Source: a phage. Taken from it: a stretch of 64,000 nt of DNA. Positions 39,285 to 46,631 of the stretch are shown one piece after another (within the stretch, counting starts at the first letter, position 1; the number at the start of each line of letters is the position of its first letter). The DNA is taken from sequence record PZ445551.1, one strand, 5' to 3'. A model generated the notes under the pieces. It made no database searches, was not told the DNA's origin, and saw only the letters and a list, made by a program, of their open reading frames with translations. The position numbers and the translations under genes are program-made.

Positions 39285-39568
39285 CGTGCCTTCTCCCGAT
39301 CTGCATCTAATTTCAACAAGAAAGCTGTATACTCTTCCGAACCTTGGTGTAAAAACATGTGATAAGAGCTTACCAGTTTCTTCGTTGTTGTATAACGTTC
39401 CATTTCCCCAACAACACCTCCACCTAGTGTGTAGAGCACAATACCTTCAACTCCAACATAGGTTACTACTTCAACCAAGTCTGTGTTATCCCAATAGTAG
39501 TTAGGTGACACAATAAGATCGCCCACTGCCAGTTTAATGTTTGCTACTTCGTCTTGTGAATAATACAT
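39281..39568 (-). CDS. Hypothetical protein
   Basis: 95-aa ORF. Confidence 0.55.
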   Translation of the reverse strand: MYYSQDEVANIKLAVGDLIVSPNYYWDNTDLVEVVTYVGVEGIVLYTLGGGVVGEMERYTTTKKLVSSYHMFLHQGSEEYTAFLLKLDADREKAR

Positions 39569-39580
39569 TTGGTTCTCCTC

Positions 39581-39871
39581 TCACATTAAGACACGTTTTG
39601 TGTTGATGGGTGCATTATCAAACATGTTTATCACTTTGTCAAGTTTGTGTATTAACTCGTTCGTAATGTTCCACTCTTTGTATGATCTCCATTGTTTCTT
39701 ATTCTCACCTACCTGGTGTAAAACTTTGATTGGTGCATTCAAACGTACATTGCGTTCTTTGTCCTCTTCAAAAGAGGCTAACCATTTTTCGTTATGTCCA
39801 TGAACAGCAATAATAATGCCAAAACCATCAAAAGTTTCTGTAATATTCTTAGTTGCTAGTGTGATGTTCAT
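39581..39871 (-). CDS. Hypothetical protein (first gene of the minus-strand block)
   Basis: 96-aa ORF adjacent to the divergent intergenic region. Confidence 0.55.
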   Translation of the reverse strand: MNITLATKNITETFDGFGIIIAVHGHNEKWLASFEEDKERNVRLNAPIKVLHQVGENKKQWRSYKEWNITNELIHKLDKVINMFDNAPINTKRVLM

Positions 39872-39990
39872 ATCTAACCTCTTTTGTTACGATACACACA
39901 GAGTACCAGAAATTAATTTCAGATCAAGTATTGACATACTGTTTTATTGTGCTAATCTTAATGCATACACAAATGAGAGGAGATAAACGA
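39872..39990. promoter_or_regulatory. Divergent intergenic control region (strand switch; TTGACA -35-like box for the plus-strand block)
   Basis: Genes to the left are all minus-strand, genes to the right all plus-strand; TTGACA about 50 nt upstream of the 39991 start. Confidence 0.4.
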
Positions 39991-40542
39991 ATGCAAAACA
40001 CCGATCTGACTTGGATAGAAGCCAAAGAAGCAATGTTAAAAGGCAAACGCGTTAAACATAAATACTTTTGCGAAGGAGAATGGTTTGAAATGCGTAACCG
40101 ATCCCTTGTAGATGAAAAAGGGAATGACATGCAACAATGGTTCAAAAATGAAATTTGGCAGGGAACAGGTTGGTCTGTAGTTGAAGAGCAGCCTAGCTCA
40201 AGCGCACTGTTTAGCCCTATTATGTATCGCGTTATCGGTGCTTTAGTTGTTGATCACAGGATTGCAGTGGAAAAAGAATGCTGGGAAGAGGTATCTTTTT
40301 TCAACCTGGCTTCTTATGCAAAAAGCCATATGCACTTGTTTGAAGAAGGGGATGAATTTGTTCTTCGTATGCGCTATGGCAAAGAATTCAGATTATCACT
40401 TGATAATGATGTAGACACTGTTGTAAAATGGTTAGCAGAGCATTACGCTTACGATGCAATTTGTGGTCGCAGCTTCGGCAACGAACGCTGGGACATGATT
40501 TGTGAAAAATATGATTTTGAGCCGGAGTACGGAGTTTTATAA
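39991..40542 (+). CDS. Hypothetical protein
   Basis: Start at ATG 39991 with SD GAGAGGAG; longest ORF from 39931 lacks an RBS. Confidence 0.6.
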   Translation: MQNTDLTWIEAKEAMLKGKRVKHKYFCEGEWFEMRNRSLVDEKGNDMQQWFKNEIWQGTGWSVVEEQPSSSALFSPIMYRVIGALVVDHRIAVEKECWEEVSFFNLASYAKSHMHLFEEGDEFVLRMRYGKEFRLSLDNDVDTVVKWLAEHYAYDAICGRSFGNERWDMICEKYDFEPEYGVL

Positions 40543-40793
40543 TGTTAAGTATCAAACCTAAAATGATAACAGAAGACGAAGCAGACTTTATTTTCAAATG
40601 TGGACGTGTATGGAGAGAATTCACAAAAGGAAATGAAGTGGTGGTTGTTGTTGAACACAAGATATCTATTCAGGATCTGTTTGGACAATATGTTGATGTT
40701 ATTAAATTAGGTATTGACAAGGGTTTAGTTGAGGTGTTAACATTAGATCAAGTTGAAGCAGAGCACCTCAATAAAGTAGTGGTTGAATTTTAA
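40542..40793 (+). CDS. Hypothetical protein
   Basis: 83-aa ORF, translationally coupled to its neighbour. Confidence 0.55.
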   Translation: MLSIKPKMITEDEADFIFKCGRVWREFTKGNEVVVVVEHKISIQDLFGQYVDVIKLGIDKGLVEVLTLDQVEAEHLNKVVVEF

Positions 40794-40813
40794 AATACAG
40801 ACGGGAGAAAGGT

Positions 40814-40987
40814 ATGAGTTTCTTTGTTACAGTATTTATGGCTATCTGGATTGTAGTCTCACTCGTTCTTTTCCTGGTGGGTTGTCTGGAAGAGATTAAG
40901 AAAGCGGTTATTTGCGGTTTCTTTGGCTTTATTATCTCTCCTGCCTGGATGTGGTTCTTCATTATTATTGGTTTCCTTAAAAGGTAA
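40814..40987 (+). CDS. Small membrane protein (57 aa, below the ORF-track threshold)
   Basis: ATG 40814 after GGGAGAAAGG; two hydrophobic segments; hand-translated. Confidence 0.45.
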   Translation: MSFFVTVFMAIWIVVSLVLFLVGCLEEIKKAVICGFFGFIISPAWMWFFIIIGFLKR

Positions 40988-41001
40988 GTGAGGAATAAAG
41001 A

Positions 41002-41439
41002 ATGAGTAAAACAAACGCAATCGCAGATAAAGCAACTGATGTACTTCTGAACATGGTTAACGTCACTATTCAAACAATGAGTGATGTTGTAGAGTTTGGA
41101 AAACAACAAATTCCAGAAGTAATTCATCAATTATTAGTGTGGAAAGCAGTATCCGCAGGTTTATGGCAACTTTTTAGTATTTGCTTTATGTTTATTACTT
41201 TTATTGCTGTGCGGAACCTCGTAAAAGCAATTAAAGATAAAGAATGCCTGTGGTCACGAGATCGCTATGGTGAAGTATCTGCTTTACCTATTGTTGGCCT
41301 TGTTGTCTGTGCTTTCTTTTTCTTTTTAGGATTTGTTATTTTCTTTTCGAATTTTGATTGGCTAAAAATCATTATTGCACCAAAAGTGTATCTGATTGAA
41401 TTTGCTGCTGATTTAATTCGTTCATCTCAACAAAAATAA
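41002..41439 (+). CDS. Membrane protein
   Basis: 145 aa with several hydrophobic helices. Confidence 0.6.
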   Translation: MSKTNAIADKATDVLLNMVNVTIQTMSDVVEFGKQQIPEVIHQLLVWKAVSAGLWQLFSICFMFITFIAVRNLVKAIKDKECLWSRDRYGEVSALPIVGLVVCAFFFFLGFVIFFSNFDWLKIIIAPKVYLIEFAADLIRSSQQK

Positions 41440-41451
41440 AAGGGGTTTAAA

Positions 41452-42579
41452 ATGAAATACACGATTTATGGTGATATTGTAAGTGTAAATAAAGATATGG
41501 GCGTGGAATCTAACTATCTTCCACCAGGATTCTATACTGTTAGTCGTGATCCCCTTGGCAATTATTTTTTAAGCCGTGGTAATCTGACAGGTGTACCGGA
41601 TGTTTTGTATGGTGAAACAGAAAAACGAGCAAATCACGTTATCCGTACATTCCATCGCCGGAGTGCACAAGGTAAAAACACAGGCTTGCTTCTGACAGGA
41701 ACTAAGGGCAGTGGTAAAACTATGTTAGCCAAACTCATTAGTCGTGACCTTGTAGAAGAAGGTATTCCAACTATTATGGTTACTCAAGCCTATAGTGATG
41801 CTAATTTCATTGAACTTATTAGCAAGATCACCGACAAAGCAGTGATTATTTTTGACGAGTTTGATAAAGTATATGAGAAGAAACAAGATCAAGAAGCACT
41901 TCTCACTTTGTTAGATGGTACTGGCAGTGGTAATAAACTGTTTATTCTGACTAAAAACAGTGGTTTTATCTCTGAATTCTTTTTAAATCGTCCTAGTCGT
42001 GTGTTTTATAATTTTAATTATGATAAAATCTCACTAGAAACTATGATTGACTATTTAGATAAAAACCTGGATAACAAAGCACACTTTGATAATTTCCAAA
42101 GACTTTGGGATGTAAGTTTAGAGTTGTCCTTTGATGTGATCCAAGGTATAGTAGAAGAACTTAATTTCTACCCTGATTTATCCTTTAAAGAATGTATCTC
42201 TATGATGGGCGTTTCTTTAGGTGGTGGTAATAAATGGGATATCAGCAGTGTTGTTATTAATGGGAAACTTCAGAAAGTTAGCTGGGTATCTAGTTGGCAT
42301 AACTTTACACCTGCAATCTTTTTAGGTGGCTCGTGCACACTAGACGTGTACTTGTCATCTCCAAGTGATGCAGACTCTAAAGAAGCCCTTGCTAATAGCT
42401 CTTACGTGGTTTTTGATGATGAAGGAGATGCTCGAATTCCATTGAATGCGACAAAAATGAAAGCAGATCTTATTACAGGCGGTAAAATCGTTGTGTTTAG
42501 TGATGATCCAGAAGATTCTTTCCGTATTGTTCTGGAACCAACTATCACCAATGGTGCAACTTTGGCAAGTGTGTTTTAA
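41452..42579 (+). CDS. P-loop NTPase (AAA-like ATPase), paralog of 26312-27472
   Basis: Walker A GTKGSGKT, Walker B IIFDEFDK; collinear with the minus-strand paralog over about 250 residues. Confidence 0.8.
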   Translation: MKYTIYGDIVSVNKDMGVESNYLPPGFYTVSRDPLGNYFLSRGNLTGVPDVLYGETEKRANHVIRTFHRRSAQGKNTGLLLTGTKGSGKTMLAKLISRDLVEEGIPTIMVTQAYSDANFIELISKITDKAVIIFDEFDKVYEKKQDQEALLTLLDGTGSGNKLFILTKNSGFISEFFLNRPSRVFYNFNYDKISLETMIDYLDKNLDNKAHFDNFQRLWDVSLELSFDVIQGIVEELNFYPDLSFKECISMMGVSLGGGNKWDISSVVINGKLQKVSWVSSWHNFTPAIFLGGSCTLDVYLSSPSDADSKEALANSSYVVFDDEGDARIPLNATKMKADLITGGKIVVFSDDPEDSFRIVLEPTITNGATLASVF

Positions 42580-42593
42580 GTAAGCCAGCAAAT

Positions 42594-42620
42594 AAAAACC
42601 CGCTCCGGCGGGTTTTCTTG
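42594..42620 (+). terminator. Rho-independent terminator (AACCCGC-tccg-GCGGGTT + TTCTTG)
   Basis: Stem-loop and T-tract immediately after the ATPase stop. Confidence 0.65.
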
Positions 42621-42653
42621 TATTGATACCAGATTTAATAAGAGGAGTAATAG

Positions 42654-43826
42654 ATGACAGCACCAAAATCATGGGAACAATATAAAGAAGAATTAACACC
42701 CCTTGCTAAAAATCACAATATTCAAATCCTGGGTTATGTTGGTGAATGGAAAGGGAACAAGACTAAACTTAAGCTATCTTGCCCTAAACATGGAGAGTGG
42801 AACACCACGAACATTAATGATTTTAAGAAGGGACGTGGTTGTCCTATCTGTTCTGGTAAGAAGCCGTTAACATGGGAAACAGAATTGCCGATCTTGGAAG
42901 AGATAGCACAGAAGAGGGGGTATCAGGTGTTAGGGTACGTGGGAGAATGGAAAGGGAATAAAACAAAACTTGATTTGTTGTGTCATTGTGGTAATAAATG
43001 GGATACTACAAGTATTAACAATTTTAAACGTGGTAGCGGTTGTCCACAATGTAAGAGGGAGAGACAAACAATGTCCGACGATCAACATATTGCAGATTTC
43101 TTTTCTACAGGGGAATTTAAGGAAGGCACTATCTTCACCAATACAGGGAAACGTAACAAGCGTGATGCAGTATGGATGGTTGAGTGTCCTGTTTGCTCCC
43201 ATGATGAATATGTTCAAGCAGGTGTTTGTGATGGTAAATTTTACTCTGCAGGACATAACCTTAAACAAGGGTATATTCCGTGTCGTTGTGGGAACTATCA
43301 GTATACAGAAGACCAGATCACCTATAGGGTAAAAAAGGAAGTAGAAGGGAAAGGGTATGTCTGGGTAGATTGGATTACCAAACCCTCTTCTATAGGTAAG
43401 TTTAAATATCTTTGTCTTGTGCATGGTGAGCAGATAGGGAGTGCTCGTAATTTATTAAGCCTCGGTCAAGGTTGTCCACAGTGTGCTGGTCATAATCAAC
43501 AGCAATTATATATTAATATTGTTAAAGATAATGATATTATAGTTGCCCTTAAGTTTGGTATATCTAAAGATAGCGATAGACGATTAAACGGTCAAAATAG
43601 CCGTAATCTGTTTTTTATGGAGCGTATTTGTTTATATGATTTTAGCACAGTGAAACAATGTAGGGCTGCTGAAAGAGCTATAAAGAAAAAATTAAAAACT
43701 GGTATTTTAACGGCAAGAGAGTTGAAAGATGGTTATACAGAAACAGTAAGTGTTTCTGATTTGGAAAATCTTCAAAAAATTATTACACAATATGGTGGCA
43801 AATTAGTATACAGTAAGGAGATGTAA
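42654..43826 (+). CDS. Protein with three zinc-ribbon-type repeats (GCPxC) and a C-terminal T5orf172/GIY-YIG-like domain
   Basis: Tandem repeats LGYVGEWKGNKTKL...GCPICSG / ...GCPQCK / ...GCPQCAG; C-terminus IVALKFGISKDSDRRL resembles T5orf172. Confidence 0.55.
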   Translation: MTAPKSWEQYKEELTPLAKNHNIQILGYVGEWKGNKTKLKLSCPKHGEWNTTNINDFKKGRGCPICSGKKPLTWETELPILEEIAQKRGYQVLGYVGEWKGNKTKLDLLCHCGNKWDTTSINNFKRGSGCPQCKRERQTMSDDQHIADFFSTGEFKEGTIFTNTGKRNKRDAVWMVECPVCSHDEYVQAGVCDGKFYSAGHNLKQGYIPCRCGNYQYTEDQITYRVKKEVEGKGYVWVDWITKPSSIGKFKYLCLVHGEQIGSARNLLSLGQGCPQCAGHNQQQLYINIVKDNDIIVALKFGISKDSDRRLNGQNSRNLFFMERICLYDFSTVKQCRAAERAIKKKLKTGILTARELKDGYTETVSVSDLENLQKIITQYGGKLVYSKEM

Positions 43827-44378
43827 ATGCGGATTACTGATAAGTATGTGTTCTTCTTCTCGGCAAAAGATGAATTTAGCAACTGGTATCTATCATCTTT
43901 TATTGAACCTTTAGCTCCCAAGTATAATAATTCTATTACAAGTTCTGTTGAATTTACTTGTGTGGAACAATATATGATGTGGAGAAAAGCATGTTTGTTT
44001 TATGATTACAACATTGCATCTTCTATTTTAACCGGAGATCTAAGATATACAGGAGAAAAAGAACAAGCATATTATAAGCGACTAGGCAGATTAGTTAAAG
44101 ATTATGATGAAGATACCTGGACTTCTTTACGGGAGAAGATTGTCAAACGTGGTTTGTATCTTAAATACACACAAAATGAAGATCTCAAAAATAAACTTAT
44201 AGCCTACGCAGATAAGGAGTTCGTAGAGGCAAGCCCTTATGATTCTATTTATGGTATCAAAATGGGGATGTGGGATCGGGACGTGGAAAATAAGGATTGT
44301 TGGAAAGGACAAAATCTTTTAGGAAAATGGCATACAGACCTTGCTGTTTATCTAAAAGCACAATCTGATATTTCCTGA
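43827..44378 (+). CDS. NADAR-domain protein (YbiA-like; candidate DNA ADP-ribosyl-guanine hydrolase)
   Basis: Motifs FFFSAKDEFSNW, CVEQYMMWRKA, W-KGQNLLGKW agree with the NADAR/YbiA pattern; 183 aa. Confidence 0.55.
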   Translation: MRITDKYVFFFSAKDEFSNWYLSSFIEPLAPKYNNSITSSVEFTCVEQYMMWRKACLFYDYNIASSILTGDLRYTGEKEQAYYKRLGRLVKDYDEDTWTSLREKIVKRGLYLKYTQNEDLKNKLIAYADKEFVEASPYDSIYGIKMGMWDRDVENKDCWKGQNLLGKWHTDLAVYLKAQSDIS

Positions 44379-44596
44379 TATTTTGAAAATTTTTATTTTT
44401 ATAAAAAGGGGTGTGGGTTTCATGTACGGAAATTCACCCTCTGCACAGTATATCCAGAGTAAGTAGTATTCTATACCCTGTTAATAAAGTATTTAATTTG
44501 TTTGTTGGACTATGGTATCTGATCTTTAAAAGGCATACTATCTCTTAACTACTACTTATAACAGAACAGTAAAATCATTTTTATAAAAAGTACAAA

Positions 44597-44800
44597 ATTA
44601 TTTAAAGTTTTTACAGATTTTTGGGTACAAATTTTGAAAATGAAAAGTTCAAGTTTGGTCAAAATTATTTAAAGTTTTTGTACGTATTTCTATTCAGATT
44701 TTGAAAATGAAAACTTCAATTTTTTAAAAATTCCCCAGTTTATTTAAAGTTTTTTTGCCTTTTTCCGTAGAAAAATCAAAAATGAAAAGTTCAATTTCGT
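44597..44800. repeat. Three tandem direct repeats (about 65-75 bp units: TATTTAAAGTTTTT ... GAAAATGAAAAGTTCAA)
   Basis: Repeated unit read directly in an AT-rich non-coding stretch. Confidence 0.6.
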
Positions 44801-44817
44801 GTTTTTATAGGTGTGTT

Positions 44818-44928
44818 AATGAGAATCATTTTCGTTTGTAAATGAGAATCATTATCATTTAACTATGTAAGTGATAATCATTCTCAGTAAGAGAATGAGA
44901 ATCCTTAGCAAATGAGAATTTTCTCATT
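44818..44928. promoter_or_regulatory. Cluster of five AATGAGAATCATT / GATAATCATTCTC iteron-like sites (Fur-box-like), including the perfect 18-bp palindrome AATGAGAATTTTCTCATT
   Basis: Repeated half-sites resembling the GATAAT hexamer of the Fur box; non-coding. Confidence 0.45.
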
Positions 44929-45044
44929 TAGAGAATAACGCGCAGGGGTGGTGTTTGTCTCGCGCTCCCGTGTCCCCTCGCCATACAATAAGAATAGCAT
45001 AACCAACAACAAAAGCAAGCGATTATTTTTATCTTTACATTTCT

Positions 45045-45458
45045 TTACAAATTTATTTTAGACGAGCTACCGGCGATCAACCTTCCAACCAGTGCCCCCT
45101 GGTATGTTAGCCCCGCCTTTACGCCGTGGGGGTGGCGCTTCCTCTTCTGTATGTAAAACAGTATAAGCCCGATCCCTGGGCTTGTCAAGATTATTTTTTG
45201 TTTTCTTGCCAGGATAGGACACCTAACCAAAAATACATGTCGCCCCGCGCCCCCTGGTGGGATCTTGCTTTCCCCGCCGCCACTGCAAGCCCATAGATAA
45301 CCATTTGCGAACGTATCAAAATGATCTATTTCTTCCACCTTATGATCGCCCAGGTTGAGAACGGTTTCAACCTTTAAGCCCGTTGCGCTTGCTACCTGGT
45401 GCACCGTGCCGCCTTGCCAGCCTAATGAGTGCATGAGGTGTGAAGTAGTATTTGTCAT
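45045..45458 (-). CDS. Hypothetical ORF inside a GC-rich island (coding status uncertain)
   Basis: 137-aa ORF on the opposite strand from flanking genes; region is visibly GC-richer than its surroundings; no clear SD. Confidence 0.25.
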   Translation of the reverse strand: MTNTTSHLMHSLGWQGGTVHQVASATGLKVETVLNLGDHKVEEIDHFDTFANGYLWACSGGGESKIPPGGAGRHVFLVRCPILARKQKIILTSPGIGLILFYIQKRKRHPHGVKAGLTYQGALVGRLIAGSSSKINL

Positions 45459-45829
45459 GGTATCGCCCTTTCTTTGATGTGTGCCCTGGTTGGCGCGGTA
45501 GAAAGATAATAGCCCTTTCCTTTATAGATAGCAAGCAAAAAAGAAATGAAAAAAAGATTAAAAAAGGGGTTGACGTTCCTCACCTGGTAGCGTATTATTC
45601 ATCTTGTCGAGGGGGGCGAGGCACAACGACAATAAACAAAAGGAGGGCGCAATGTAGGACGGGCAAAGGTGAGGATCTCCACAATCCACCGTCACAATAA
45701 CATTACTTATAAAAGGTTGATAACGATGATCAAGAAAGAAAACAGCTTGACGGTTGGAACGATTAACGCTATCATTTTCGCCGTTCCATTTTGGGTTGTA
45801 GTAGCGGTTATTATCTTTTAAAAATATTC

Positions 45830-45887
45830 TTGACAACGTTTTTTAATCTGATAAGATGTATCACATAGGGCGGCAATAGTGCCGCTC
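45830..45887 (+). promoter_or_regulatory. sigma70-like promoter (TTGACA -35) + 5' GC stem-loop cassette
   Basis: TTGACA at 45830; stem-loop GGGCGGC-aatagt-GCCGCTC; ATG at 45910. Confidence 0.55.
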
Positions 45888-45909
45888 ATAACAGAAGAGA
45901 GAAATAATC

Positions 45910-46182
45910 ATGGCATCATATAGCGCATCAATGATCGTAACGGGCATCACTGGTAAACCTATGCGCGGTGGCGGATCTTTCGCTAACATCAATATTGATG
46001 GGCGTTTATCCCTGGACGCAGCGATCACAGTGGCACGGGAAACGTTTAAAAAAGAATGTAATTTCAATAAACAAGATTATCTCGGTTTCGCTATTGAAAA
46101 AACCGCGCGCTTTGTTGATTATAAAAGCCCGAAAATGGTTGATACTACACTAAAAGCGCAAGATGTAGCATTTTTGCTTTAA
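45910..46182 (+). CDS. Hypothetical early protein
   Basis: 90-aa ORF behind a promoter/stem-loop cassette. Confidence 0.6.
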   Translation: MASYSASMIVTGITGKPMRGGGSFANINIDGRLSLDAAITVARETFKKECNFNKQDYLGFAIEKTARFVDYKSPKMVDTTLKAQDVAFLL

Positions 46183-46185
46183 GGC

Positions 46186-46246
46186 TTGACACTGAAAAAT
46201 AATTTGGTAATATATACTACATAGGGCGGGGAAATGGTTTCCCGCC
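46186..46246 (+). promoter_or_regulatory. sigma70-like promoter + 5' GC stem-loop cassette
   Basis: TTGACA at 46186; stem-loop GGGCGGGG-aaatggttt-CCCGCC; ATG at 46269. Confidence 0.55.
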
Positions 46247-46268
46247 AAATCAAAGAAAGGGTAACACA

Positions 46269-46631
46269 ATGAGCAAGCAAATCAATACTATCATGTTAAA
46301 CCTGGTATCTTTCCGCGATGACGTGAAAAATCTTTCGCGTGATGCAGTGGATGCACGGATCGAAAGCTATCGCTCACAGATCGCAACATTACCGCTAAAA
46401 CGTGATCAACATGCCGCTAATATGATGCTTAATGCTATGCTTAAAAAGATGATTCAATGTGATCTTACCCTGGCTTATGAATATGCTGGCGATCTCTTTG
46501 TAACATACAATAAGCCCGTTCCAGGTATGAGCACAACCGAAGAATTGCATGCCTTAAATCTGCGACAAGATGCATGGGATAATATGCGCCGCGTTATGGT
46601 ATGGGTAGAAAGCGGCAAAATTTACGCATAA
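46269..46631 (+). CDS. Hypothetical early protein
   Basis: 120-aa ORF behind a cassette. Confidence 0.6.
   Translation: MSKQINTIMLNLVSFRDDVKNLSRDAVDARIESYRSQIATLPLKRDQHAANMMLNAMLKKMIQCDLTLAYEYAGDLFVTYNKPVPGMSTTEELHALNLRQDAWDNMRRVMVWVESGKIYA

What the first reader, a model, noticed from the sequence alone, without database searches (positions are those of the whole stretch)
42654..43826. Zinc-ribbon triple repeat fused to a T5orf172/GIY-YIG-like domain
Three copies of a ~60-residue unit ending in GCPxC are followed by a C-terminal domain resembling T5orf172. The architecture suggests a DNA-binding regulator or a degenerate homing-endonuclease relative, co-operonic with the NADAR and ATPase genes.
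Basis: partly seen in the sequence, partly recalled or inferred. Interest (0 to 1): 0.45.

Follow-up and report, generated by a model that had tools for sequence, protein, structure and literature searches.

The report
Zinc-module homing-type endonuclease of a coliphage
This phage gene encodes a known kind of putative selfish DNA-cutting enzyme: four zinc-binding DNA-recognition modules joined to a GIY-YIG-type (T5orf172) nuclease domain. It is an ordinary member of that kind, but it shows clearly how such genes diversify by swapping and counting modules.

Summary
The ORF at 42654-43826 (+, 390 aa) is real. The window is Escherichia phage VivaForever, a phi92-like Justusliebigvirus. The protein has four zinc modules, not three, all matching the CapR homology domain (PF21817). 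Three end in GCPxC. A divergent fourth, of the CxxC...CxC CapR type, sits between copies 2 and 3.

The architecture matches ICP1 gp165 and the [quoted passage not shown] described by Barth et al. 2023. Within the genus the flanking genes are 96-100% identical, while the zinc-array DNA drops to 55-90%. Whole modules are gained or lost in register. The window's own allele is less diverged than its flanks in 7 of 9 genomes, which points to recent lateral spread.

A strong terminator separates the gene from the ATPase gene, and its stop codon abuts the NADAR start codon.

Verdict: a new member of a known kind. Cleavage and homing remain untested.

The parts
42654..43826 (+). Complete gene (390 aa plus stop): four zinc modules followed by a T5orf172/GIY-YIG-like nuclease domain. 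Orthologue of phi92 gp222.
   Evidence: ORF list; Pfam CapR E=3.9e-43 and T5orf172 20.6 bits; PHROG 681 'endonuclease' E=1.3e-86; 100% identical to the gene annotated 'endonuclease' in phage VivaForever PP925843.
42669..42857 (+). Zinc module U1 (aa 6-68). Ligands C43, H46, C63, C66; ends in GCPIC.
   Evidence: Pfam CapR 46.8 bits for the isolated unit; U1-U2 z=27.9; ligands at least 90% conserved. Modules of this type vary in number (1-4) among homologues.
42867..43058 (+). Zinc module U2 (aa 72-135). Ligands C110, C112, C130, C133; ends in GCPQC.
   Evidence: Pfam CapR 61.0 bits; ligands C110, C130 and C133 invariant. It shares a 39-nt stretch, 82% identical, with U1 (gene positions 79-117 and 280-318), which could serve as a substrate for unequal recombination.
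43071..43295 (+). Zinc module U3 (aa 140-214). Divergent CapR-type CxxC...CxC unit with ligands C178, C181, C210, C212.
   Evidence: Pfam CapR 52.8 bits; C178, C210 and C212 invariant. It has the same motif order as the CxxC...CxC motif whose cysteines are needed for DNA binding by PLE CapR (PMC8096241). It is well conserved against ICP1 gp165.
43299..43490 (+). Zinc module U4 (aa 216-279). Ligands C254, H257, C274, C277; ends in GCPQC. Joined to the nuclease domain by about 8 residues.
   Evidence: Pfam CapR 21.1 bits, E=3.6e-4, below the cut-off when scanned alone; U1-U4 z=9.1; ligands invariant or at least 90% conserved.
43491..43823 (+). C-terminal T5orf172 / GIY-YIG-like nuclease domain (aa 280-390). 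Invariant residues: Y286, K300, G302, R310, Q314, E340, D359-G360, T362-E363-T364.
42595..42616 (+). Intrinsic-terminator-like hairpin (AAAACCCGC-TCCG-GCGGGTTTT followed by a T-rich tail) between the ATPase stop codon and this gene.
   Evidence: Sequence; strongest terminator-like site in 39500-46500; forms in the minimum-free-energy fold; annotated as a terminator in phage Paula; the only SNP inside it (42605) lies in the loop.
42640..42647 (+). Shine-Dalgarno-like AAGAGGAG, 6 nt upstream of the ATG.
   Evidence: Read directly from the sequence; an AGGAG ribosome-binding site is annotated at the same place in phi92.
43827..44378 (+). Downstream NADAR-domain gene. Its ATG follows the endonuclease stop codon directly. 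A neighbour, not part of the enzyme.
   Evidence: Pfam NADAR E=2.5e-36; junction GAGATGTAAATGCGG. It is not linked to homologues of the endonuclease in Vequintavirinae.
41452..42579 (+). Upstream AAA-type ATPase gene. A conserved neighbour in all Stephanstirmvirinae examined.
   Evidence: Pfam AAA E=1.5e-9 and PHROG 2376 E=6.6e-108; synteny in phi92, phAPEC8 and ukendt.

Best explanation
The gene encodes a modular, sequence-specific DNA endonuclease of the T5orf172 branch of the GIY-YIG superfamily. It is a free-standing, homing-type (selfish) nuclease gene of phi92-like phages.

**Proposed mechanism.**
1. Four independently folded, zinc-stabilised CapR-homology modules of about 65 aa, arranged like beads on a string, together read an extended DNA target.
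2. The last module is joined by only about 8 residues to a GIY-YIG-like catalytic domain, which cuts close to the bound site. The proposed catalytic residues are Tyr286, Lys300-x-Gly302, Arg310 and the metal-binding Glu363.
3. In mixed infections, the break in a related genome carrying another allele is repaired from the nuclease-encoding genome. This copies the allele, together with short pieces of the flanks, into the rival genome.
4. Target specificity evolves through gain or loss of whole modules, by recombination at the repeated LGYVGEWKG-coding segment, and through import of diverged modules from other phages.
5. Expression is probably kept low. It would depend on read-through of the terminator upstream, and translation of the NADAR gene is coupled to it.

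**Shown here:** domain make-up, conservation of ligands and motif residues, fold similarity, homology to ICP1 gp165, hypervariability confined to the array, in-register module indels, and an allele less diverged than its flanks.

**Inferred:** zinc binding, DNA binding, cleavage, homing and the expression mode.
For: **Domains.**
- CapR matches four times, E=3.9e-43.
- T5orf172 scores above the gathering score.
- PHROG 681 'endonuclease' scores E=1.3e-86.

**Conservation.**
- Y286, K300, G302, R310 and E363 are invariant, as are all the zinc ligands or nearly so.
- K300/G302/R310 align with Y17/G19/R27 of I-TevI.

**Family.**
- The protein is 28% identical (E=2e-30) to ICP1 gp165 over a collinear four-module array. 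gp165 is one of the T5orf172 putative homing endonucleases of PMC8096241 and PMC10448857.
- The same architecture is annotated 'GIY-YIG nuclease family protein' on Cupriavidus plasmids.

**Population pattern.**
- Flanks are 96-100% identical, the array 55-90%.
- dS in the array is 0.18 to saturated, against 0.07-0.15 in the flanks.
- The window's U3-U4 is closer to the phAPEC8 allele (another genus) than to that of phi92.
- Module indels are in register.
- In 7 of 9 genomes with the same allele, the gene is significantly less diverged than ATPase plus NADAR. For example, 0.26% against 2.0%, p about 1e-5.
- One of ten copies of this allele (the window plus nine other genomes) is frameshifted.
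- Homologues sit at unrelated loci in Vequintavirinae.
Against: - No biochemical datum exists for this protein. By the authors' own statement, homing has not been shown experimentally for any ICP1-type T5orf172 gene (PMC10448857).
- The T5orf172 Pfam score is marginal (20.6-22.7 bits). Sequence-only comparisons to solved GIY-YIG structures fail, and Foldseek E-values are not significant.
- The classic mark of a homing gene, sporadic presence or absence, is not seen here. Every Stephanstirmvirinae genome inspected carries an allele at the same locus. No empty site and no target site were identified.
- Phage recombination in general, without a nuclease-made break, could also produce the mosaic pattern.
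Confidence: 0.6

Rival explanations
1. A domesticated or weaponised nuclease rather than a selfish homing gene. Fixed at one locus in the whole subfamily, it would serve the phage by cutting the DNA of competing phages, phage satellites or the host. Its array would diversify in an arms race over targets, as ICP1 Odn does against PLE.
For: - An intact allele is present at the same position in all inspected Justusliebigvirus and Phapecoctavirus genomes, although the flanking ATPase gene is saturated at synonymous sites between the two genera.
- The catalytic residues are invariant.
- Diversification is confined to the recognition array, with dN/dS 0.3-0.6.
- There is a precedent for T5orf172 nucleases redeployed against satellites (PMC10448857).
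Against: - No target is known.
- No similar DNA was found in 5,426 complete E. coli genomes, so no satellite with a matching module was detected at the DNA level.
- There is no PADLOC or NCBIfam hit.
- The allele being less diverged than its flanks and one frameshifted copy fit a selfish element at least as well.
- The two readings are not mutually exclusive.
Confidence: 0.22
2. A nuclease-dead, sequence-specific DNA-binding regulator, acting like PLE CapR as a repressor, perhaps of the adjacent NADAR gene or of early genes.
For: - CapR-homology modules bind DNA and repress transcription in PLE CapR (PMC8096241).
- Lys replaces the second Tyr of the canonical GIY-YIG motif.
- No Asn equivalent to I-TevI N90 was identified.
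- The gene sits inside an operon of small early-type genes.
Against: - CapR itself is a 15.5-kDa protein without a nuclease domain, whereas here the nuclease domain is the most conserved part.
- Y286, K300-x-G302, R310 and E363 are invariant across the aligned homologue clusters.
- A T5orf172 nuclease with this motif type is catalytically active and depends on the aligned Glu (cited in PMC10448857).
- Hypervariable specificity between near-identical phages is hard to square with a housekeeping regulator.
Confidence: 0.08
3. The repeats and the C-terminal similarity are chance or compositional artefacts in a protein of unrelated function.
For: The T5orf172 score is close to the threshold. Searches of solved structures by sequence returned only spurious hits to designed repeat proteins.
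Against: - CapR scores E=3.9e-43 with four separate matches.
- Repeat z-scores reach 27.9.
- 143 homologues were found, and 1407 cluster representatives of the C-terminal domain.
- A confident model has GIY-YIG nucleases as its best structural matches.
Confidence: 0.01

Closest known systems
ICP1 gp165 and the other T5orf172 putative homing endonucleases of Vibrio phage ICP1 (Netter 2021, PMC8096241; Barth 2023, PMC10448857)
   Same: - Same architecture and module order: four CapR-homology zinc modules followed by a C-terminal T5orf172 domain.
- 28% identity, E=2e-30, collinear over the whole array.
- Same evolutionary behaviour as described for that family: repeated zinc-finger modules, in-frame loss or gain of a module by recombination between repeats, domain swapping, and occasional frameshifts.
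   Different: - Different host and phage lineage (Escherichia, Stephanstirmvirinae). phi92-like phages are not mentioned in the main text of the 2023 paper.
- There is one copy per 64-kb window, at a fixed locus present in every relative inspected. In ICP1 there are many copies that are variably present.
- The nuclease domains are too diverged to align significantly.
CapR of the Vibrio cholerae satellite PLE
   Same: Module U3 has the same CxxC...CxC zinc motif. In CapR the four cysteines are required for DNA binding. All four modules match the Pfam family named after CapR.
   Different: CapR is a single-module 15.5-kDa repressor with no nuclease domain. It is the domesticated derivative, whereas this protein is of the parental, nuclease-bearing type.
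I-TevI and the Seg proteins of phage T4 (GIY-YIG homing endonucleases)
   Same: - A GIY-YIG-type catalytic core tethered to a separate DNA-binding region that includes a zinc finger.
- A free-standing gene lying between conserved phage genes.
   Different: - The domain order is reversed: the nuclease is C-terminal here and N-terminal in I-TevI.
- Lys replaces the second Tyr.
- Recognition is by an array of four zinc modules, rather than a zinc finger plus a minor-groove helix plus a helix-turn-helix.
- There is no significant sequence similarity.
SLX1 / At-HIGLE structure-specific GIY-YIG nucleases
   Different: These are eukaryotic repair nucleases that pair with a RING/PHD-type zinc domain and with SLX4. 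Sequence identity is 14-17%. The similarity concerns the fold only.
ICP1 Odn (T5orf172 nuclease with a RepA_N domain)
   Same: A T5orf172 nuclease domain fused to an exchangeable DNA-recognition domain. It is the case in which nuclease activity and dependence on the aligned Glu were shown, as cited in PMC10448857.
   Different: Odn uses a RepA_N domain captured from its satellite target and acts as an anti-satellite weapon. Here the recognition part is a zinc-module array and the target is unknown.

Membership tests
CapR homology domain (Pfam PF21817) | Profile match above the curated gathering score (24.2 bits) | tested here: met
   The whole protein scores 145.9 bits, E=3.9e-43, with four stretches. 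Isolated units score U1 46.8, U2 61.0, U3 52.8 and U4 21.1 bits; U4 alone falls below the cut-off.
CapR homology domain (Pfam PF21817) | Two pairs of zinc-ligand residues per module (CxxC...CxC in CapR), conserved | tested here: met
   Each module has four Cys/His ligands. U3 has the CapR order CxxC-28-CxC. U1, U2 and U4 have C-x2-H or CxC followed by CPxC. The ligands are invariant or at least 90% conserved in 31 homologues.
CapR homology domain (Pfam PF21817) | Zinc-dependent, sequence-specific DNA binding | not testable with these tools
   Shown only for PLE CapR, by EMSA and Cys-to-Ser mutants (PMC8096241).
T5orf172 domain (Pfam PF10544) | Profile match above the gathering score (20 bits) | tested here: met
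   20.6 bits for the whole protein and 22.7 bits (E=1.5e-4) for the isolated domain. This is marginal. 15/32 homologous domains also match, best E=1.2e-5, and 11/32 match the sister family MUG113.
T5orf172 putative homing endonucleases with zinc-finger arrays (Barth et al. 2023) | Nuclease domain at one terminus, with one or more CapR/DUF723/DUF4379 zinc modules filling the rest | tested here: met
   Architecture U1-U2-U3-U4-nuclease. Collinear homology to ICP1 gp165. Definition taken from PMC10448857.
GIY-YIG nuclease superfamily | Characteristic alpha/beta core fold | tested here: met
GIY-YIG nuclease superfamily | Motif residues: Tyr of 'GIY', Tyr-x-Gly of 'YIG', Arg in helix 1, catalytic Glu, and Asn | tested here: inconclusive
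   Y286, K300-x-G302, R310 and E363 are invariant, and their spacing resembles that of I-TevI Y6/Y17/R27/E75. K300/G302/R310 align to Y17/G19/R27, but at E=0.15 only. Lys replaces the second Tyr, as in T5orf172 proteins. No Asn equivalent was identified. The mapping of Y286 and E363 is inferred, not aligned.
GIY-YIG nuclease superfamily | Metal-dependent DNA cleavage | not testable with these tools
For T5orf172 the activity is reported only for ICP1 Odn (cited in PMC10448857).
Homing endonuclease gene (functional definition) | Sporadic presence or absence among close relatives, with an identifiable empty target site | tested here: not met
   All 16 Stephanstirmvirinae loci inspected carry an allele directly downstream of the ATPase gene. 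No empty site was found. Across wider phage groups, homologues do occupy unrelated loci.
Homing endonuclease gene (functional definition) | Signature of recent lateral spread: the element is less diverged than its flanks, or is mosaic relative to them | tested here: met
   The same allele differs by 0.26-0.68% against 1.6-2.0% in the flanks in 7 of 9 genomes (one-sided Fisher p 8e-6 to 0.0095). Other alleles differ by 11-32% in the array inside flanks differing by 1.2-2.9% in the genes (up to about 7% in the 74-bp spacer). dS is elevated up to saturation.
Homing endonuclease gene (functional definition) | Cleavage of the rival allele and biased (super-Mendelian) inheritance in crosses | not testable with these tools
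   This needs co-infection experiments. It is unverified even for the ICP1 genes.
PLE CapR-type domesticated repressor | Small protein consisting of the zinc module only, with no nuclease domain | tested here: not met
   The protein is 390 aa, with a conserved C-terminal nuclease-like domain.

The most novel reading that the evidence does not exclude
The locus is not a decaying selfish element. It would be a stably maintained, multi-allelic 'programmable' nuclease system. Each ~65-aa zinc module would read a short DNA segment, so that the number and order of modules spell the target. That would make it a natural counterpart of engineered zinc-finger or TevI-fusion nucleases. The deeply diverged alleles, with 3, 4 or 5 modules, would be kept in the phi92-like population because each cuts genomes that carry the others, or particular satellites or competitors. 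This would be allelic warfare that decides which parent's DNA survives a mixed infection.
Probability: 0.15. Interest if true: 0.65.

Novelty: new member of a known kind. Interest (0 to 1): 0.28.

Why it matters
The practical result is a correct annotation. The protein is a four-module CapR-type zinc array plus an apparently intact T5orf172/GIY-YIG nuclease. It is not a degenerate relic or a plain regulator.

Beyond that, the phi92-like coliphages offer a tractable test bed for a family whose homing has never been shown experimentally:
- they grow on E. coli K-12 and dozens of genomes are sequenced;
- natural alleles with 3, 4 and 5 modules sit in otherwise 96-100% identical flanks, which is close to an ideal design for mapping targets;
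- the same set could be used to ask whether modules contribute additively to specificity;
- it could also be used to measure biased inheritance in crosses.

If a module-to-sequence code exists, it could interest genome-engineering work. The gene also marks a local hot spot of recombination, which matters when these phages are compared or engineered for therapy.

Tried and rejected
1. **Profile search of the C-terminal domain against all PDB sequences.** Only spurious multi-repeat hits to designed toroid proteins came back.
3. **hhalign of the C-terminal profile against I-TevI (1-97) and against ICP1 gp165.** Only short, non-significant alignments resulted. Sequence alone therefore does not prove the GIY-YIG link.
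4. **Search for paralogues in the window.** None were found (tblastn).
5. **Hypothesis that the endonuclease and NADAR genes travel together as a cassette.** Rejected. In Pectobacterium phage DU_PP_I and Salmonella phage SSE121, homologues lie in other contexts and the downstream genes are not NADAR.
6. **Search for a satellite or prophage copy of the array in 5,426 E. coli genomes, at the DNA level.** No match.
7. **Defence-system and NCBIfam libraries.** No hit for this protein.
8. **Own promoter.** No sigma-70-like site lies in the 37 bp between the terminator and the ATG.
9. **tRNA and Rfam scans of the window.** Nothing found.
10. **In-situ positive selection as the only cause of array divergence.** Rejected, because synonymous divergence is also raised 2- to 10-fold or to saturation.
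Full report
**Where the window comes from.** The 4 kb around the finding is 100% identical to Escherichia phage VivaForever (PP925843). It is 94-99% identical to some 55 phi92-like phages of the genus Justusliebigvirus, subfamily Stephanstirmvirinae. The gene is the orthologue of phi92 gp222. RefSeq-type annotations call it 'endonuclease' and older records call it 'hypothetical protein'. One UniRef entry names a homologue 'CapR homology domain-containing protein'.

**Checking the observation.** The ORF 42654..43826 (+, ATG, 390 aa) is present as described. GCPxC occurs three times, ending at C66, C133 and C277. The three units that carry it are related far beyond chance. Local alignment against 300 shuffles gives z=27.9 for U1-U2, 9.1 for U1-U4 and 4.8 for U2-U4.

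The units are not adjacent, however. U3 has no pairwise similarity to the others (z 0-1.7). It nevertheless scores 52.8 bits on Pfam's CapR homology domain. The other units score U1 46.8, U2 61.0 and U4 21.1 bits, against a cut-off of 24.2. The whole protein gives CapR E=3.9e-43 with four matched stretches, plus weaker hits to the related zinc-finger families DUF4379 and DUF723. Each unit has four Cys/His ligands, and all sixteen are invariant or at least 90% conserved in an alignment of 31 homologues.

**The C-terminal domain.** Residues ~280-390 match T5orf172 (PF10544) at 20.6 bits in the whole protein and 22.7 bits (E=1.5e-4) in isolation. That is just above the curated cut-off of 20. Of 32 diverse homologous C-terminal domains, 15 also hit T5orf172 and 11 hit the sister family MUG113.

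Invariant residues across homologues are Y286, K300, G302, R310, Q314, E340, D359, G360, T362, E363 and T364. K300-x-G302...R310 aligns with Y17-x-G19...R27 of I-TevI (my I-TevI sequence was verified against 1mk0/1ln0). The spacing of Y286 and E363 resembles that of I-TevI Y6 and E75, but that mapping is inferred. The domain therefore looks like an intact T5orf172-type GIY-YIG core, not a degenerate one. The profile finds 1407 cluster representatives in 1.84 billion proteins, and the domain lies at the C-terminus in nearly all of the 150 listed.

**Comparison with what is known.** The closest characterised relatives are the T5orf172 putative homing endonucleases of Vibrio phage ICP1. The window protein is collinear with ICP1 gp165 over the whole four-module array (28% identity, E=2e-30). 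gp165 itself scores CapR x4 (209.7 bits) and T5orf172 at only 18 bits.

Netter et al. 2021 (PMC8096241) showed three things. The satellite protein CapR is a domesticated single zinc module from such genes. Its CxxC...CxC cysteines are required for DNA binding. T5orf172 belongs with the GIY-YIG domains.

Barth et al. 2023 (PMC10448857) reported that 200 of 229 T5orf172 genes carry CapR, DUF723 or DUF4379 modules, often several as 'beads on a string'. They also reported that recombination between repeats deletes or duplicates modules, for example a 228-bp in-frame deletion in gp174, and that domains are swapped between genes. They state that homing of these genes has not been verified experimentally. 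phi92-like phages are not mentioned in their main text, and I found no later experimental paper. This is a new, uncharacterised member in coliphages.

**Family anatomy.** Among 143 homologues, the arrays follow the scheme (U1/U2-type)n - U3 - U4 - nuclease. The number n is 1 in 28 clusters, 2 in 23, 3 in 7 and 4 in 2. U3-U4-nuclease is therefore a constant core, and the N-terminal modules vary in number.

In phage EmilieFrey exactly one module is missing, and in PaulScherrer one is added. The junctions fall within or just after the repeated ILGYVGEWKGNKTKLKLS segment. At the DNA level, that segment is the only stretch repeated within the gene (39 nt, 82% identical).

**Population pattern at the locus.** Every Stephanstirmvirinae genome I opened has an allele directly after the ATPase gene. 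In Phapecoctavirus, two small ORFs separate it from the NADAR gene.

Against phi92, PaulScherrer and EmilieFrey, the flanks are 96-100% identical. The zinc-array DNA falls to 55-90% or is deleted, and the nuclease-coding part stays at 91-99%. Synonymous divergence is 0.07-0.15 in ATPase and NADAR (dN about 0) but 0.18 to saturated in the array. dN/dS is 0.3-0.6 in the array and 0.12-0.18 in the nuclease domain. The array variants are therefore old, imported alleles rather than local bursts of mutation. The window's U3-U4 is closer to the phAPEC8 allele, from another genus (dS 0.88), than to that of phi92 (saturated).

Conversely, nine phages from Europe, the USA, China and India carry the window's own allele. 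In seven of them the gene is significantly less diverged than ATPase plus NADAR, for example 3/1173 against 34/1680 differences, one-sided Fisher p about 1e-5. The low-SNP tract runs from about 42730 to 43860-44066. Two of the nine stand out:
- EC_OE_11 keeps the array but has a different nuclease-domain haplotype, which places a breakpoint at the domain junction.
- ECGD1 has a 1-bp deletion that truncates the ORF to 225 aa. Whether this is real decay or a sequencing error cannot be told.

Homologues in Vequintavirinae (SSE121, DU_PP_I) lie at unrelated loci without a NADAR neighbour.

**Operon context.** The gene lies on the + strand, in a run of + strand genes that starts at the strand switch near 39900. 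The 74-bp spacer after the ATPase gene contains AAAACCCGC-TCCG-GCGGGTTTT plus a T-rich tail (42595-42616). This is the strongest terminator-like site in 39500-46500. It is annotated as a terminator in phage Paula, and its stem is conserved. No sigma-70-like promoter fits between it and the AAGAGGAG ribosome-binding site. The stop codon is followed at once by the NADAR ATG.

So the gene is translationally linked to the NADAR gene and insulated from the ATPase gene. I infer, without data, that expression depends on terminator read-through and is low.

**Interpretation.** The best-supported reading (confidence about 0.6) is a modular, sequence-specific T5orf172/GIY-YIG endonuclease that behaves as a homing-type selfish gene. 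Zinc modules bind an extended target, and the tightly tethered nuclease cuts next to it. Repair from the donor genome then spreads the allele. Module gain, loss and exchange change the specificity.

The main rival (about 0.22) is that the nuclease has been retained for the phage's benefit, against competitors, satellites or the host. Its fixation at one locus across two genera favours this, and it need not exclude selfish spread. A nuclease-dead regulator (about 0.08) fits poorly with invariant catalytic-type residues. An artefact is excluded.

What fails for strict membership as a 'homing endonuclease gene' is the presence/absence criterion. No empty site was found. Cleavage, target and biased inheritance are untested.

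**Verdict.** The domain interpretation is right. 'Degenerate', 'regulator' and 'co-operonic with the ATPase' are not supported. This is a new member of a known kind and of modest interest. Its main value is as a clean natural allele series for testing how this still unproven class of homing nucleases recognises and spreads through DNA.

Noticed in passing
window 44379-45900 (tandem repeat at 44593-44723): About 1.5 kb downstream of the NADAR gene has no long ORF. It contains a 67-bp unit repeated 2.0 times (81% match), a 23-bp x2 repeat at 44814-44860, and several promoter-like and terminator-like sites on both strands. The same spot is annotated 'repeat_region' in phages inny, muut and alia. 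There is no Rfam or tRNA hit.
   Followed up: partly
window 43827-44378: The NADAR-domain protein (Pfam E=2.5e-36) also matches the PADLOC candidate defence family PDC-M42C (E=1.8e-34) and TIGR02464 N-glycosidase. It matches the NCBIfam 'NADAR family anti-phage protein' only weakly. A phage-borne NADAR could be a counter-defence enzyme, for example by reversing ADP-ribosylation of DNA. That idea comes from my own knowledge and was not tested.
   Followed up: no
window 41452-42579: The AAA-type ATPase (PHROG 2376) is annotated inconsistently across records as 'ATPase', 'FtsH-like protease', 'ATPase or Zn metalloprotease' or 'regulatory inactivator'. Only the P-loop region (aa ~60-170) matches known families. 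Most relatives show a second DNA match elsewhere in the genome, which suggests a paralogue.
   Followed up: no
L011 (phage ECGD1) 4654-5825, corresponding to window 43313: A 1-bp deletion at gene position 660 splits the endonuclease gene into two annotated CDS, leaving a 225-aa truncated product. It may be real decay of the gene or a sequencing error in this 2016 record.
   Followed up: partly
L016 (phage EC_OE_11), corresponding to window 43559-43821: This phage has the same zinc-array allele as the window, but 16 of its 17 differences in the nuclease-coding part cluster between 43559 and 43821. That places a recombination breakpoint at the junction between the array and the nuclease domain.
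   Followed up: partly
window 39500-40500 and beyond 45800: Mosaic boundaries lie about 2 kb on either side of the gene. EmilieFrey is only 34-70% identical to the window between 39500 and 40500. phi92 drops to 6-39% identity after 45800. Both are about 98% identical to the window in between.
   Followed up: no
window ~39900-40000: Genes switch strand here, from - strand on the left to + strand on the right. The sign of the GC skew flips at the same place, which suggests a divergent promoter region. The first + strand ORF (39931-40542, TTG start) matches two different PHROG families in its two halves. Relatives annotate it as a shorter 552-bp gene.
   Followed up: no
P0028 (669 aa) and P0035 (547 aa), metagenomic homologues: P0028 contains two complete array-plus-nuclease copies fused head to tail. 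P0035 contains a duplicated U3-U4 block before a single nuclease domain. These are larger-scale duplications than the single-module changes seen in the phi92 group.
   Followed up: no
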